Sequence record: LT960609
Source: Escherichia phage SECphi18
Reading direction: 5' to 3' (one strand)
Length of the DNA: 44,798 nt
The position numbers and the translations under genes were made by a program. Positions 36,936-40,648 of the stretch are shown here, piece by piece (within the stretch, counting starts at the first letter, position 1; each line of letters begins with the position of its first letter). The notes below the pieces were generated by a model. The model saw only the letters and a program-made list of their open reading frames with translations. It had not been told where the DNA came from and did not search any database.

Positions 36936-37154
36936 TTATTCCGCCTTTTTCCAGACTTCAGTTTCACTATCCCAGTTCCTCTTTGTGGCGTCGTAGTTGG
37001 TGGCGTGTCCGACGTGGACACCGGTAGCCCGGAAGCTCTTAAATTTTTGCCAGCACACCGTCAACGGCAGCGGATCATTCATGCCTGCGATAAACCACAC
37101 GCGATCGCCCGGTTTACATTCGCCCAGCTTGGTGAGTCGGTAATGTTCTTTCAT
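36936..37154 (-). CDS. Hypothetical protein
   Basis: 72 aa from internal ATG with RBS gggaga. Confidence 0.4.
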   Translation of the reverse strand: MKEHYRLTKLGECKPGDRVWFIAGMNDPLPLTVCWQKFKSFRATGVHVGHATNYDATKRNWDSETEVWKKAE

Positions 37155-37170
37155 CGGCATGTCTCCCAAA

Positions 37171-37195
37171 AATGGCGGGACAAGCCCGCCGTATT
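37171..37195 (-). terminator. Intrinsic terminator on minus strand
   Basis: Minus strand: ggcgggc-ttgt-cccgcc followed by attttt. Confidence 0.45.
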
Positions 37196-37197
37196 AA

Positions 37198-37371
37198 TTA
37201 TTTTTGCTCTGCGCGGTAGCGGCGCTGCCGTTCGCGCTCTTTTTTATTGCGGCACGATTTGCACTCTGCCCGATACCCGTCCGGGCTTCGCGCAGTCTTA
37301 CCGGTGTATTTATGGAACTGGGATAGCGGTTTAACGCAGCCGCAATTACTGCAACGTTTTTCTTCAATCAT
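37198..37371 (-). CDS. Free-standing zinc-ribbon protein
   Basis: 57 aa from internal ATG; CSNCG...CKSC pattern, same as the N-terminal repeats of the HNH endonuclease. Confidence 0.4.
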   Translation of the reverse strand: MIEEKRCSNCGCVKPLSQFHKYTGKTARSPDGYRAECKSCRNKKERERQRRYRAEQK

Positions 37372-37402
37372 CTCTAAAATCCTCGATATGGCTAACCGGC
37401 AC

Positions 37403-37431
37403 ACTATACCGCTATGCGACCAATTCAGCAA
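37403..37431 (-). promoter_or_regulatory. Sigma70-like promoter using an operator-motif copy as -35
   Basis: Minus strand: TTGCTG (inside ATTGGTTGCT), 17 nt, TATAGT; upstream of the zinc-ribbon gene. Confidence 0.4.
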
Positions 37432-37690
37432 CCAATAAATCACAGTCGGCGATGTTGTCTGTAACGCGAACGTCCGCGCCGCGGCGGGCCATCCTCTCAT
37501 GTTCACGTACCTGGTGCGGCTTCGGTTTTCCTCCGGGGCGCTTCACTTCGACGAACACTATTTTGCCGTTGATGATAATAATCAGGTCGGGCGCACCTGC
37601 GCGCCCCTCCCATGCCAGTTTTCGGCAGAATCCGCCAACATCTTTCACCCGTCTCATCAGGTGACTTTGAATCTTGCCTTCTGGTGTCAT
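37412..37690 (-). CDS. VRR-NUC domain nuclease
   Basis: 92 aa; GAPDLIIIINGKIVFVEVK matches the VRR-NUC PD...EVK core. Confidence 0.6.
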   Translation of the reverse strand: MTPEGKIQSHLMRRVKDVGGFCRKLAWEGRAGAPDLIIIINGKIVFVEVKRPGGKPKPHQVREHERMARRGADVRVTDNIADCDLLVAELVA

Positions 37691-38289
37691 TGTCGGCTTT
37701 TCCTTACGGCAGCGATGGCCGGTCCGACAAACTTCTTCATTTCGTCCGGGGTAAACCGGTCCCCGCGGGCTATGTTACACTCTACGCAGCATGGCACGCA
37801 GTTATCTTTCGTATGGCCTACTGCGTTGTCGAGTCGGTCCACGCCATTGTCGCCGGTGAATCCGCAGTATGCGCATGGTTGAGAAGTAAGGCGTAGCACG
37901 TCCTCGGTGGTTAGGTCGGTGTTTAGCCCCTTCCTTTCGTCCGCCTTACGGTACTGAAAGAGCTTATAGTAAGCGCGGATCCCTGGTGTCCGGTGGTTGT
38001 ACTCACGGCGGGACTTATTAGCGCACGACCGGCATTCTTTACGAATATGAGACTGGCTTGCCCGGTTTCCGGGCCGGAAGTTTTCCGGCGTGAGCCGCTT
38101 GCGCTCCCCGCACGTACGGCATGTTACGATCTCCCCAGTATACTCTCGCCATACTTCGCGCGGCGGCGCTCCTCTTTCCCTATCCCGTCGCTCTTTCTTA
38201 TACGCCGCCATGCATTTGGCACACCACGACTGACCCTTGTTGAAAGCGGACTCATCTTTATCCGTATTACAACGCCCACAATGTTTCAT
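37687..38289 (-). CDS. HNH endonuclease with N-terminal zinc-ribbon repeats
   Basis: 200 aa from internal ATG; two CxxC...CxxC ribbons; HNH core CAYCG...GHTKDNCVPCCVECN. Confidence 0.6.
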   Translation of the reverse strand: MKHCGRCNTDKDESAFNKGQSWCAKCMAAYKKERRDRERGAPPREVWREYTGEIVTCRTCGERKRLTPENFRPGNRASQSHIRKECRSCANKSRREYNHRTPGIRAYYKLFQYRKADERKGLNTDLTTEDVLRLTSQPCAYCGFTGDNGVDRLDNAVGHTKDNCVPCCVECNIARGDRFTPDEMKKFVGPAIAAVRKSRQ

Positions 38290-38356
38290 ATACACCCCCG
38301 AAAAAGAAAACGTCAGACAATATTGCCTGACGTTTCCGCTAAAAGCAACATTTCCG

Positions 38357-40648
38357 TTACTTGCGGTATCGATACATACAATCGCCTTCGGCGGCAAGTG
38401 GGAAGCCTTTCGCCCAAATAGGCAGGTCGCACATCAGCGCGCAAAGCTCCTCGGTGGTGTAGTCGTCGGTGTCCGGCACTTCGGTGACCAATTCATCGTG
38501 CACTGACAGGACGATCTCATATCCGGCGGCTTCAACGCCAGGCATGGACCACGCGAGAATATCGCGGCACAACGCCTGTACGATGTTCTCCGTTAGTTTG
38601 CCGCCGTAGGTGTACTGGAAACCCCACTGGCGCGTCGTCTGATTCTCGCCCTGGTATTTGATGCGTGTGCTGGTGCGCTTCTTGCCGGTGTCTTCGTCGA
38701 TCTCGGTCGTGACAGACAGCGCGATACCGGGATAGCTCATGATGCGACCTGACGGCAACTCAATTTTCAACCACCACCCCGCAGCGTTCGGGTCGTCGCG
38801 CTCCTCGTCGAAGGTTGGGTCGTGCTTCGCCTTCGTGCGCACAATCTTGAGCGCTTTTCTACCGTCTGGGCGAACGTTAGCGCCAGCCCAGTAGGCTTTG
38901 CCCGGATTGCGGATTGCACACAACACCGCGTCCTCAAGCTCGGCCCAAAATGCTACGGTCTTCGGGTGGGCCTCACGCCACATGCGTTTGATCGCGTCGC
39001 ATGTCAGCCATACATTTTTAGGCAGTATGTAGGTTGGGCGCTCGTCTTTCTTGCCAGGCTTCGGCGGGCGCTTCGCTTCGTTAATGCGGGCGTATTCATA
39101 ACCCCGTTTAGCCGCTGCCCAAATGTGATCCGGGAACGTGCCTTTCATGACGTCCGCCATAGTGTAAAGGTCGAGGCCCAGGTTTTTAGCGAACTGTAAG
39201 AACGCCGCCACGCCGCCACCATAGCCCAGCCCCAACTCACACGCCTTACCGATCTGGCGCAAGTCTTTGCGGTTGGCTTTGATGTAATCCGGGTCAAGGC
39301 CGAACATCTTACCGGCAGTCTCGCAATAGATATCGCGCCCGGCCTTAAACACCATTAGCGCGGTTTTCTCGCCAGCGATCCAGGCAAGGCCGCGCCCTTC
39401 CACGTTGGAGTAGTCAGCTACGACAAACTTCTTGCCCTTTGCAGGGATAATGCACCCGCGAACGGTCGAGGCGGTCAGCTTCGATATGTCGTACGCCCAG
39501 TGCGCTGTCCCGCGTAACAGGGAATTGATGCCGTTGGTGAGCATGTGCGACCGCACCCAAAACGAGACGTCGCTCTCGCCTTCGCGGCGCTTAATCTTCC
39601 CTTCGTGGTCGTCGCTATACTCGCCGCGTGCCAGGTTTTGCGGCTGGAAGCCTTTACCAGCCCAGCGTAGCGTGCGCTTTGCGCCGCCATACTGAATACA
39701 CCCACGGCGACGACCATCGGCAGACAGGCCATTAACGAGCGGATTGTATTTAGTCGATGCCGTTGATGACGCGCCGAGGCGCATTTCGATAAGCGCTTTG
39801 CCTTCGTCGGGGAAGTCCGGGTCTTCAAGCAAGTCGTTCAGCGTGGATTTCTGCGCGTTGTGGATCGTGAACGCCGGGGCAATATCACGCAGAATCGGCA
39901 GGAAGTCGTTGCCGGTCAGCTTGCCGCCAAACCGCTCCCATGCCTCTTCCTTCAATTCTTCCTTATGCGCCCGCACCGCCTTGATCGCGGCGTTCGCCAG
40001 GTCAACGTCCACATAGAAGCCTCGGTCGTTAATAATCTGGTCGATGAGCAGGATTTCGTCTTCCTTCGGTGAGTTGCCCCAGTCCGGTATGCGCCAGTAG
40101 ACTTCACGCATGGCAACAATATCCAGCGCGGCATAGCGCAGAAATTTGGCCCACTCTTCTGGGTGAGTCTCGCGAGTGTAGCGGCGGATTTTGTAGGTCT
40201 TAGGGGTAGGCTTACAGAATCGTTTAATCAGCGCCTTGCCCGCCTTATCTTTCGCGTGCTCTGCGTCAACGCCCAGTACCTGACACTGCATATCGAGGCT
40301 ACCGGGCAGCGCGTGGCGAAAGGCCATAATCATGGTGTCTTCGATCTGGCTTACCGGCAGGTCAATGCCCCACTTCTCTCGGATAACCAGGCGGTCGAAC
40401 AGGAGGCCGTTAGCCATCACTATTTTAGCTTTCTTACGAGATACACGGCGGAGCGCCTTGCGCAGTTCACGCGGCATTGTGGGGGATTCAGTGGCGTCCC
40501 ATGTCTGCACGCGGCCCTCGTCGATGGCGTATGTGCAAATCATAATCTCGGTCGATGGGTGTTCTGCGTAGGCGTAAGCGCCTACTTTCTTCAGGCCCAC
40601 ATCGCTAAATGTCTCGGTGTCGAGAAACAGACGTTCGAAGTCTTTCAT
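38357..40648 (-). CDS. Family A DNA polymerase with 3'-5' exonuclease domain
   Basis: 763 aa; exo motif LFLDTETFS; polymerase motif C SVHDELV; RBS gagga. Confidence 0.85.
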   Translation of the reverse strand: MKDFERLFLDTETFSDVGLKKVGAYAYAEHPSTEIMICTYAIDEGRVQTWDATESPTMPRELRKALRRVSRKKAKIVMANGLLFDRLVIREKWGIDLPVSQIEDTMIMAFRHALPGSLDMQCQVLGVDAEHAKDKAGKALIKRFCKPTPKTYKIRRYTRETHPEEWAKFLRYAALDIVAMREVYWRIPDWGNSPKEDEILLIDQIINDRGFYVDVDLANAAIKAVRAHKEELKEEAWERFGGKLTGNDFLPILRDIAPAFTIHNAQKSTLNDLLEDPDFPDEGKALIEMRLGASSTASTKYNPLVNGLSADGRRRGCIQYGGAKRTLRWAGKGFQPQNLARGEYSDDHEGKIKRREGESDVSFWVRSHMLTNGINSLLRGTAHWAYDISKLTASTVRGCIIPAKGKKFVVADYSNVEGRGLAWIAGEKTALMVFKAGRDIYCETAGKMFGLDPDYIKANRKDLRQIGKACELGLGYGGGVAAFLQFAKNLGLDLYTMADVMKGTFPDHIWAAAKRGYEYARINEAKRPPKPGKKDERPTYILPKNVWLTCDAIKRMWREAHPKTVAFWAELEDAVLCAIRNPGKAYWAGANVRPDGRKALKIVRTKAKHDPTFDEERDDPNAAGWWLKIELPSGRIMSYPGIALSVTTEIDEDTGKKRTSTRIKYQGENQTTRQWGFQYTYGGKLTENIVQALCRDILAWSMPGVEAAGYEIVLSVHDELVTEVPDTDDYTTEELCALMCDLPIWAKGFPLAAEGDCMYRYRK

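What the first reader, a model, noticed from the sequence alone, without database searches (positions are those of the whole stretch)
37198..38289. Shared zinc-ribbon module in an HNH endonuclease and a free-standing ORF
The HNH endonuclease has two N-terminal CxxC...CxxC ribbons, and a 57-aa ORF two genes downstream carries the same ribbon alone. This suggests domain shuffling among homing-endonuclease-like genes in the replication module.
Basis: seen in the sequence. Interest (0 to 1): 0.4.

Follow-up and report, generated by a model that had tools for sequence, protein, structure and literature searches.

The report
Common zinc module in phage genes

Summary
On the minus strand, a 200-aa nuclease (37687-38289) carries two N-terminal CxxC...CxxC modules. 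A 57-aa ORF (37198-37371), the second gene downstream, carries one. All three match a profile built from 764 units of unrelated proteins far better than shuffles that keep the Cys positions fixed.

The module belongs to a very large family: 58,909 clusters at 50% identity, often as tandem arrays. It is predicted to fold as four strands plus a helix, like the non-catalytic zinc repeat of Hpy99I and the N-terminal zinc motif of PacI.

The 57-aa ORF behaves differently. It appears to be present in every relative, is syntenic across genera, and is under strong purifying selection (pN/pS 0.04). Its module is no closer to the neighbouring nuclease's modules than to those of unrelated proteins.

Domain promiscuity is therefore real at family level, but there is no evidence of local shuffling. 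The 'Lar-like' annotation is unsupported. Interest is low.

The parts
38357..40648 (-). Family A DNA polymerase gene (763 aa). Its stop codon is the left edge of the variable slot.
   Evidence: ORF. Pfam DNA_pol_A at 2.6e-16. Slot boundary.
38306..38337 (-). Terminator-like hairpin (14 pairs) plus T-run between the polymerase stop and the HNH start. It is part of the HNH cassette.
   Evidence: It is absent from HNH-less alleles. An analogous hairpin plus T-run precedes the homologous HNH in L028.
37687..38289 (-). 200-aa PacI-like His-Me finger (HNH) nuclease with two N-terminal zinc modules. It is a sporadic gene.
38170..38289 (-). Module R1 (aa 1-40; C4, C7, C23, C26 and a basic helix at 24-39). 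Short-loop variant with a 15-residue spacer.
   Evidence: It resembles PacI residues 2-29.
37978..38133 (-). Module R2 (aa 53-104; C57, C60, C86, C89). Four strands, then helix 87-100.
37765..37875 (-). Catalytic beta-beta-alpha-metal core (aa 139-175): C139xYC142, D151-R152, H159, N163, C168xxC171-N172.
   Evidence: Invariant columns. Alignment to PacI 90-133. PacI catalytic residues Arg93 and Tyr100 from PMC13139853.
37412..37690 (-). VRR-NUC nuclease gene (92 aa). Its ATG overlaps the HNH stop (ATGA) and is the right edge of the slot.
   Evidence: Pfam VRR_NUC at 1.1e-5. phrog_93 at 6e-30. Junction.
37198..37371 (-). 57-aa free-standing zinc-module protein (R3: C7, C10, C37, C40; basic helix 38-56). 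Core gene of the genus; identical in sequence to SO-1 gp35.
37174..37190 (-). Terminator-like hairpin (GGCGGGC-TTGT-CCCGCC plus T-run) just after the 57-aa ORF. Probable end of the polymerase operon.
   Evidence: Annotated as a terminator in phage PTXU06.

Best explanation
The window matches coliphage SECphi18, a Dhillonvirus. The shared element is a roughly 45-residue Cys4 zinc module: a zinc knuckle, a second beta-hairpin, and a helix whose N-terminus supplies the second CxxC. This is the same kind of non-catalytic accessory repeat that precedes the catalytic beta-beta-alpha-metal core in Hpy99I and PacI.

(1) The 200-aa protein strings two such modules in front of a PacI-like His-Me finger core. 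It has Asp151-Arg152 where classical HNH enzymes have Asp-His, His159 at the position of PacI's Tyr100, and Asn172 as the helix metal ligand. I infer that the modules and their basic helices position the nuclease on DNA and supply sequence contacts. I also infer that the gene is a free-standing homing-type endonuclease that lives in the slot just 3' of the polymerase gene. It would cut HNH-less relatives nearby and be copied in during repair.

(2) The 57-aa protein is one such module plus a strongly basic helix, with no nuclease. It is the last gene of the polymerase/VRR-NUC operon and a fixed, strongly constrained gene. I infer a small zinc-dependent nucleic-acid-binding factor of the replication/recombination module, not a mobile gene or a relic.

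The two genes share the module because it is ancient and promiscuous, not because of a recent exchange in this genome.

Shown: homology, fold prediction, distribution, selection. Inferred: DNA binding, cleavage activity, homing.
For: Homology of the three modules.

Family size and arrays: 58,909 clusters at E<=1e-3, with 3-12 units per protein among the top hits. Relatives reach Pfam Stc1 (second half of the model) above its cut-off.

Fold:
- The small-ORF model (pLDDT 85.4) has strands 4-6, 13-15, 19-21 and 33-37, then helix 38-56.
- R2 has the same order of elements.
- The module profile independently, though weakly, picks PacI 2-39 and Hpy99I 74-113.
- Hpy99I 65-126 is the first beta4alpha2 repeat. 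It reads the major groove (PMC2699513).

Mobility of the HNH gene:
- It is present in 26/156 records, always in one place.
- The slot has alleles of 0, 31, 192, 333 and 654-666 nt, bounded exactly by the polymerase stop and the VRR-NUC ATG.
- A homologue with two modules lies directly after the polymerase stop in L028. L026, 99.9% identical over the 1,347 nt upstream of the insertion, lacks it.
- pN/pS is 0.12.

Small ORF as a core gene: 156 records at >=90% aa identity. Syntenic in three other phage groups. pN/pS 0.04 at pS 0.33. A terminator follows directly.

Precedent: zinc-ribbon domains fused to phage HNH enzymes, or encoded as a separate adjacent protein, are described in PMC3592412.
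Against: - No biochemical evidence exists for zinc binding, DNA binding or cleavage.
- No Pfam or NCBIfam model reaches threshold on either protein.
- The sequence match to PacI is weak (E 1.2) and rests mainly on a predicted structure built from a 9-sequence alignment.
- Homing is not shown. Two synonymous differences at the polymerase 3' end that seemed to track HNH presence do not hold up in more genomes. No target site is known, and no co-conversion gradient is seen within Dhillonvirus.
- The slot also hosts unrelated small ORFs, so it may simply be a tolerant site for accessory genes.
- The function of the 57-aa protein is inferred from fold and context only. Jersey-like relatives with the same module order lack it.
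Confidence: 0.65

Rival explanations
1. Local domain shuffling: one of the two genes donated its ribbon to the other within this replication module, or the 57-aa ORF is the surviving N-terminus of a former ribbon-HNH homing endonuclease.
For: With R2 as query, the 57-aa ORF is in the top 1.2% of 770 units, and both have unusually long spacers (25 and 26 residues against the usual 22). In eiAU a canonical HNH gene lies directly after the ribbon ORF. Phage bob shows that HNH genes here do get truncated by recombination.
Against: - With the 57-aa ORF as query, 64% of unrelated units score at least as well as R2 and 97% at least as well as R1.
- Several unrelated units beat the small ORF against R2.
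- Identity is 35% and 33% to R2 and R1, against 54% and 46% to modules of unrelated phages.
- The ORF is fixed in the genus, syntenic across genera, and has pN/pS 0.04.
- Only 28 nt, holding a terminator, separate it from the next gene, so there is no room for nuclease remnants.
- The eiAU HNH is of a different type (HxDH).
Confidence: 0.08
2. The 57-aa ORF is a Lar-like restriction alleviation protein, as many database records call it. It would be an anti-restriction factor, not a replication-module DNA-binding protein.
For: phrog_5558 is labelled 'Lar-like restriction alleviation protein' and matches at 6.5e-17. RefSeq records use this name. Lar is also a small zinc-ribbon protein (my own knowledge).
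Against: - There is no match to Pfam Lar_restr_allev even at E<=1.
- Other sources give the same sequence incompatible names: kilA anti-repressor, HNH endonuclease, meiotic chromosome segregation protein.
- Its relatives by profile and fold are accessory modules of nucleases.
- No experiment supports the label.
Confidence: 0.07
3. The HNH protein is not a homing endonuclease. It is an accessory 'restriction-like' nuclease used against host DNA or co-infecting phages, kept or lost according to ecology.
For: - RefSeq names the identical protein 'restriction endonuclease'.
- The best structural match is a restriction enzyme.
- Viral PacI homologues have been suggested to be viral restrictases (PMC5714182).
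- The slot also holds unrelated small ORFs.
- No target or co-conversion evidence was found.
Against: - The same position, right after the polymerase stop, is used in two phage genera that share only about 50% VRR-NUC identity.
- In L028 the last ~28 nt of the polymerase gene are replaced together with the cassette.
- There is no partner methyltransferase next to it.
- The replication module of these phages also carries an intron-encoded HNH and inteins.
Confidence: 0.2
4. The resemblance is chance: any three short Cys4 peptides with basic tails would align this well.
For: R1 against R2 alone is not significant. No Pfam hit.
Against: Cys-fixed shuffles, an independent family profile, PHROG cross-hits and concordant fold predictions all argue against chance.
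Confidence: 0.02

Closest known systems
Restriction endonuclease PacI (PDB 3LDY/3M7K; His-Me finger group 20 of Jablonska et al. 2017)
   Same: - Same core signature G-x-D-R-x-D...G-[Y/H]...N...C-x-x-C-N, with Arg in place of the classical general-base His.
- Cys4 zinc sites flank the active site.
- The N-terminal motif of PacI (residues 2-39) resembles R1.
   Different: - PacI is 142 aa with one N-terminal zinc motif and is a bacterial rare-cutting restriction enzyme.
- The phage protein has two modules, His159 where PacI has Tyr100, only 23% identity, and sits in a sporadic phage slot.
- The sequence match is weak (E 1.2).
Hpy99I first beta4alpha2 repeat (PDB 3FC3; Pfam His_Me_b4a2 PF18275)
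Zinc-ribbon HNH endonucleases and adjacent zinc-ribbon proteins of phages (Xu and Gupta 2013, PMC3592412)
   Same: That paper describes the same arrangement: an extra zinc-ribbon domain fused to a phage HNH enzyme, or encoded as a separate small protein next to it.
   Different: Those enzymes are terminase-associated nickases with a classical H-N-H core, and their ribbons have other Cys/His spacings. Here the separate protein is not dependent on the HNH gene: it appears in every relative, while only 17% have the HNH.
Pfam Stc1 domain (PF12898), second zinc finger
   Same: Multi-copy relatives of the module match positions ~45-84 of this model above the gathering score, for example 39.2 and 40.6 bits against a cut-off of 24.8. 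One source names the 57-aa protein 'Meiotic chromosome segregation protein'.
   Different: Stc1 is a eukaryotic tandem two-finger domain. The three modules of the window do not reach E<=1 against it.
Free-standing HNH homing endonucleases of phages (for example the endonuclease-VII-type gene between primase/helicase and polymerase in T7-like phages)
   Same: They are sporadic, intergenic, next to a conserved replication gene, and carry the same N-terminal module (L009).
   Different: The catalytic core is of a different type (DHDH/endonuclease VII against PacI-like DR). Homing was not tested here.

Membership tests
His-Me finger (HNH, beta-beta-alpha-metal) nucleases | Beta-hairpin followed by a helix that carries a metal-binding Asn or His | tested here: met
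   [not shown]
His-Me finger (HNH, beta-beta-alpha-metal) nucleases | [quoted passage not shown] | tested here: not met
   The position holds Arg152 (D-R), invariant among homologues, as in PacI Arg93. No Pfam HNH model matches.
PacI-like group (group 20) | D-R at the strand end plus a Tyr in the omega-loop that replaces the His | tested here: inconclusive
   [not shown]
PacI-like group (group 20) | Two Cys4 zinc motifs around the active site | tested here: met
   C139/C142/C168/C171 plus the N-terminal modules. Zinc itself is not testable here.
Free-standing homing endonuclease genes | Sporadic presence at one fixed site among close relatives | tested here: met
   26 of 156 records, one place each. 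Exact slot boundaries. L028 against L026.
Free-standing homing endonuclease genes | Cleavage of the empty allele, and co-conversion of flanks | not testable with these tools
   No assay is possible. Flank SNPs do not track HNH presence in Dhillonvirus. In L028 the last ~28 nt of the polymerase gene differ from L026, which is suggestive only.
Lar restriction alleviation protein (Pfam PF14354) | Match to the family model | tested here: not met
   No PF14354 hit for the 57-aa ORF at E<=1. The label comes only from phrog_5558.
Stc1 domain (PF12898) | Match to the model at the gathering score | tested here: not met
   No hit for either window protein at E<=1. Multi-copy relatives do pass on the second half of the model.
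Hpy99I-type beta4alpha2 accessory repeat (PF18275) | Four strands in two hairpins, CxxC in hairpin 1 and CxxC at the helix N-terminus, no active-site residues | tested here: inconclusive
   [not shown]
Classical zinc ribbon (two zinc knuckles on beta-hairpins) | The second CxxC lies on a beta-hairpin knuckle | tested here: not met
   In both models the second CxxC begins the helix (C37-C40 at helix 38-56; C86-C89 at helix 87-100). That is the treble-clef arrangement.

The most novel reading that the evidence does not exclude
The 57-aa protein is a domesticated, free-standing copy of the non-catalytic DNA-reading repeat of His-Me finger nucleases. It would have become a fixed component of the polymerase/VRR-NUC/helicase module in several siphophage genera. 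Possible roles are a sequence-specific targeting or regulatory partner of the minimal VRR-NUC nuclease, or a factor that occludes sites cut by module-bearing homing endonucleases. Its second-hairpin loop (HKYTGKTARSPDG[YH]R) is conserved nearly unchanged in more distant relatives (P0003, P0014, P0015, 54-61% identical overall) and largely in eiAU. That is the element which reads the major groove in Hpy99I.
Probability: 0.12. Interest if true: 0.45.

Novelty: new member of a known kind. Interest (0 to 1): 0.18.

Why it matters
There are three modest practical points.

(1) It corrects annotations. The 57-aa protein is named inconsistently in databases (Lar-like, kilA anti-repressor, HNH endonuclease, meiotic segregation protein). 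It is better described as a stand-alone nuclease-type Cys4 zinc module of unknown role.

(2) The 200-aa protein is a PacI-like nuclease with His at the position of PacI's unusual Tyr. This could be a useful natural variant for studying that mechanism.

(3) The window matches SECphi18, a phage widely used in defence-system work. Knowing that this gene is a dispensable, sporadic, probably site-specific nuclease is useful when interpreting phenotypes.

None of this changes current understanding of phage nucleases.

Tried and rejected
- Immunity SNPs. In the first four genomes, two synonymous differences in the last 20 nt of the polymerase gene seemed to go with HNH presence. In 19 loci they do not: L012, L018 and L024 are HNH+ with the 'HNH-minus' variant.
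- Sequence homology between the accessory modules and the catalytic core, as a repeat duplication. hhalign gives probability 0.5%, E 0.12, and the family profile scores the core at 2.3 bits. This is not supported by sequence and stays only a structural analogy with Hpy99I.
- Word-indexed protein searches with the 57-aa ORF, the HNH protein and a module alignment returned only 3, 9 and 26 proteins. The exhaustive profile search was needed to see the family.
- Pfam and NCBIfam gave nothing above threshold for either protein.
- Literature on Dhillonvirus and SECphi18. The Avs2 trigger Ksap1 is a different 74-aa gene. The retron papers do not concern these genes.
- The PacI structure paper (PMC2886031) is not held.
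- The afdb50 fold library was unavailable.

Full report
**What is there**

The region lies in the replication module of a Dhillonvirus, with all genes on the minus strand. The order is:
- family A DNA polymerase (38357-40648)
- a 200-aa Cys-rich protein (37687-38289)
- a 92-aa VRR-NUC nuclease (37412-37690), whose ATG overlaps the preceding stop
- a 57-aa ORF (37198-37371)
- a 77-aa ORF
- an SNF2-type helicase

The window is 92-95% identical to Sodalis phage SO-1, EP23, HK578 and about 150 other records. The exact 200-aa protein is RefSeq YP_010844221.1 of Escherichia phage SECphi18, on a contig of 44,798 nt, which is the length of the window.

**Check of the observation**

The 200-aa protein has C4xxC7...C23xxC26 (R1) and C57xxC60...C86xxC89 (R2). 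The 57-aa ORF has C7xxC10...C37xxC40 (R3).

- BLASTP of the small ORF against the large protein finds R2 at E=7e-4 (18/45 identical) and R1 at E=0.12.
- With the cysteines held in place and everything else shuffled, the R2-R3 score is reached in 5 of 5000 shuffles and R1-R3 in 26 of 5000. R1 against R2 alone is not significant.
- A profile built only from 764 module units of unrelated proteins scores R1, R2 and R3 at 24.5, 23.3 and 55.0 bits. Cys-fixed shuffles reach those scores 0, 1 and 0 times in 1000. The Cys4 site of the catalytic core does not stand out (158/1000).
- PHROG profiles cross-match. The small ORF hits the large protein's family (phrog_1035, 6.5e-10). The large protein hits the small ORF's family (phrog_5558, 7.2e-7, residues 1-101, covering both R1 and R2).

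No other ORF of the window has the module.

**What the module is**

An exhaustive profile search of 1.84 billion cluster representatives finds 58,909 proteins at E<=1e-3 and 4,749 at E<=1e-10. The top hits are arrays of 3 to 12 units. The usual spacer between the Cys pairs is 22 residues. R1 (15), R2 (25) and R3 (26) are less common lengths.

Multi-copy relatives match the second half of Pfam Stc1 above its cut-off. The window's own modules match no Pfam or NCBIfam model.

AlphaFold models (pLDDT 84.5 and 85.4) give the same order of elements for R2 and R3: strand, CxxC knuckle, two short strands, loop, strand, then a long basic helix that starts with the second CxxC. R1 is a shortened version. 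This is a treble-clef arrangement rather than a classical two-knuckle zinc ribbon.

Against predicted viral structures, the fold recurs in many phage and giant-virus HNH and other endonucleases. Fusion partners seen directly are an endonuclease-VII-type core (T7-like phage RN5i1), an HH-type core (a Klebsiella phage) and a 342-aa non-nuclease protein (Lactococcus phage P1048). Zinc-ribbon domains fused to phage HNH enzymes, or encoded as a separate neighbouring protein, were described by Xu and Gupta (PMC3592412).

**The 200-aa protein**

The invariant core among homologues is C-x-Y-C...G-x-D-R-L-D-N-x-x-G-[H/Y]...N-x-V-x-x-C-x-x-C-N. In the alignment to PacI, D151-R152 fall on D92-R93 and H159 on Tyr100. 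Arg93 and Tyr100 are catalytic residues of PacI (PMC13139853; PMC5714182; PMC4081073). His and Tyr alternate at that column among homologues. This fits a catalytic role for the position, but the point is inferred.

**Is it mobile?**

The gene is present in 26 of 156 matching records, always once and always in the same place. The slot is bounded exactly by the polymerase stop codon and the VRR-NUC ATG. It exists in at least five states:
- 0 nt, with overlapping TAATG (EP23)
- a 31-nt spacer (PTXU06)
- 192 nt encoding a 63-aa ORF
- 333 nt (HK578)
- 654-666 nt with the HNH gene

The HNH allele shares its first ~24 nt with the 31-nt spacer. It then carries a 14-pair hairpin with a T-run, a G-rich ribosome site and the gene. 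There is no target-site duplication.

Phage bob has a chimera in which the HNH gene is cut inside the catalytic motif and joined to the 63-aa ORF. One metagenomic genome has a 4-residue deletion in the R2 loop. Among four intact alleles, pN/pS is 0.12.

In a Jersey-like phage group with only about 50% VRR-NUC identity, one locus of about 19 (L028) carries a homologous two-module, PacI-like gene, again directly after the polymerase stop and again behind a hairpin with a T-run. L026 is 99.9% identical over the 1,347 nt upstream of the insertion and lacks the gene. The last ~28 nt of the polymerase gene differ between the two.

This pattern is what a free-standing homing endonuclease associated with the polymerase 3' end would give. 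Cleavage and homing were not, and could not be, tested here.

**The 57-aa ORF**

It differs from the HNH gene in every respect relevant to mobility.
- 156 phage records carry it at >=90% protein identity, the same number as match the region. The exact sequence is on 367 contigs.
- It keeps its place between VRR-NUC and the helicase in Edwardsiella phage eiAU (unannotated there), Serratia phage Smarc3 and Enterobacter phage phiEap-2.
- Across 11 distinct alleles, pS is 0.33 and pN 0.014, giving pN/pS 0.04.
- It has a good Shine-Dalgarno sequence and is followed at once by a terminator-like hairpin (annotated in PTXU06).

It is therefore a constrained core gene ending the polymerase operon. It is not a relic: only 28 nt separate it from the next gene.

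Its module is not specially related to R1 or R2. Against it, 64% and 97% of 770 unrelated units score at least as well as R2 and R1. It is 54% and 46% identical to modules of unrelated phage nucleases, against 35% and 33% to R2 and R1. With R2 as query the small ORF ranks high (top 1.2%), but several unrelated units rank higher.

The 'Lar-like' name is not supported by Pfam, and other sources give incompatible names.

From fold and context I infer a zinc-dependent nucleic-acid-binding protein of the replication/recombination module. That is an inference, at roughly even odds.

**Verdict**

'Domain shuffling' is right as a statement about the family. The evidence does not support it as an event between these two genes. 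Only the HNH gene looks like a selfish element.

Both the fused and the free-standing arrangements have published precedents. The family is very large and partly covered by existing models. I rate this as a new member of a known kind, with low interest.

Noticed in passing
window 1-44798: The window appears to be the complete genome of Escherichia phage SECphi18. The 200-aa protein is identical to RefSeq YP_010844221.1 ('restriction endonuclease'), whose longest contig is 44,798 nt, the length of the window.
   Followed up: partly
window 37691-38356 (slot between the polymerase stop and the VRR-NUC ATG); L002, L003, L004, L017: This intergenic slot is a hot spot with at least five alternative contents among near-identical phages: nothing, a 31-nt spacer, a 63-aa ORF, a 333-nt insert in HK578, or the HNH gene. 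The 63-aa and 333-nt inserts were not characterised.
   Followed up: partly
P0005 (Escherichia phage bob gp01; hits H25/H125): A 201-aa chimera: HNH residues 1-147 are joined, inside the catalytic motif, to the C-terminal 50 residues of the 63-aa alternative ORF. It looks like a recombinational knock-out of the nuclease.
   Followed up: partly
L001 3903-4661 (SO-1 gp39); L002 (EP23 polymerase, 3189 nt): The SO-1 and EP23 polymerase genes are annotated at 3189 nt, and in SO-1 as holding a group I intron with its own HNH endonuclease. The window's polymerase is an uninterrupted 2292 nt. The SO-1 intron HNH has no module of the kind studied here.
   Followed up: partly
L035 3005-5269, L041 3005-5269, L042 1687-4158: In some Jersey-like relatives the SNF2-type helicase is 754-823 aa instead of about 480. 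The insertion begins CLKRGTEVIMFDG / CLQKGTKIIMLDG right after the GSGK Walker A motif, so it is very probably an intein.
   Followed up: no
L005 2435-2665 and 2613-3137 (Edwardsiella phage eiAU): The ribbon ORF is present but unannotated in eiAU. A canonical HxDH-type HNH endonuclease gene (gp20) lies directly after it, its annotated start overlapping the ribbon ORF by about 50 nt. This is another selfish-gene slot in the same module.
   Followed up: partly
P0036-P0185: The module forms tandem arrays of up to 12 units in proteins of 200-2000 aa from metagenomes. P0036 (2046 aa) combines about 10 units with HEAT repeats, winged-helix domains and a ResIII/DEAD helicase. These array proteins appear to have no annotation.
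   Followed up: partly
[not shown]
   Followed up: no
[not shown]
   Followed up: yes
hits H4/H108 (MG065648 'Campylobacter phage A144') and P0191 ('Acinetobacter phage NJ01'): Records labelled as Campylobacter and Acinetobacter phages are about 95% identical to this coliphage genus over the region. This suggests contamination or mislabelled hosts.
   Followed up: no
P0033: A 63-aa relative carries the precomputed Pfam accession PF27269.1, which is not in the local Pfam copy. It may be a newly curated family for this very module.
   Followed up: no
window 36936-37169 (-): The 77-aa ORF after the terminator matches only phrog_9291 (unknown function, 7e-47) and is under purifying selection (pN/pS 0.07). 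Similar small ORFs precede the helicase in the Jersey-like group.
   Followed up: no
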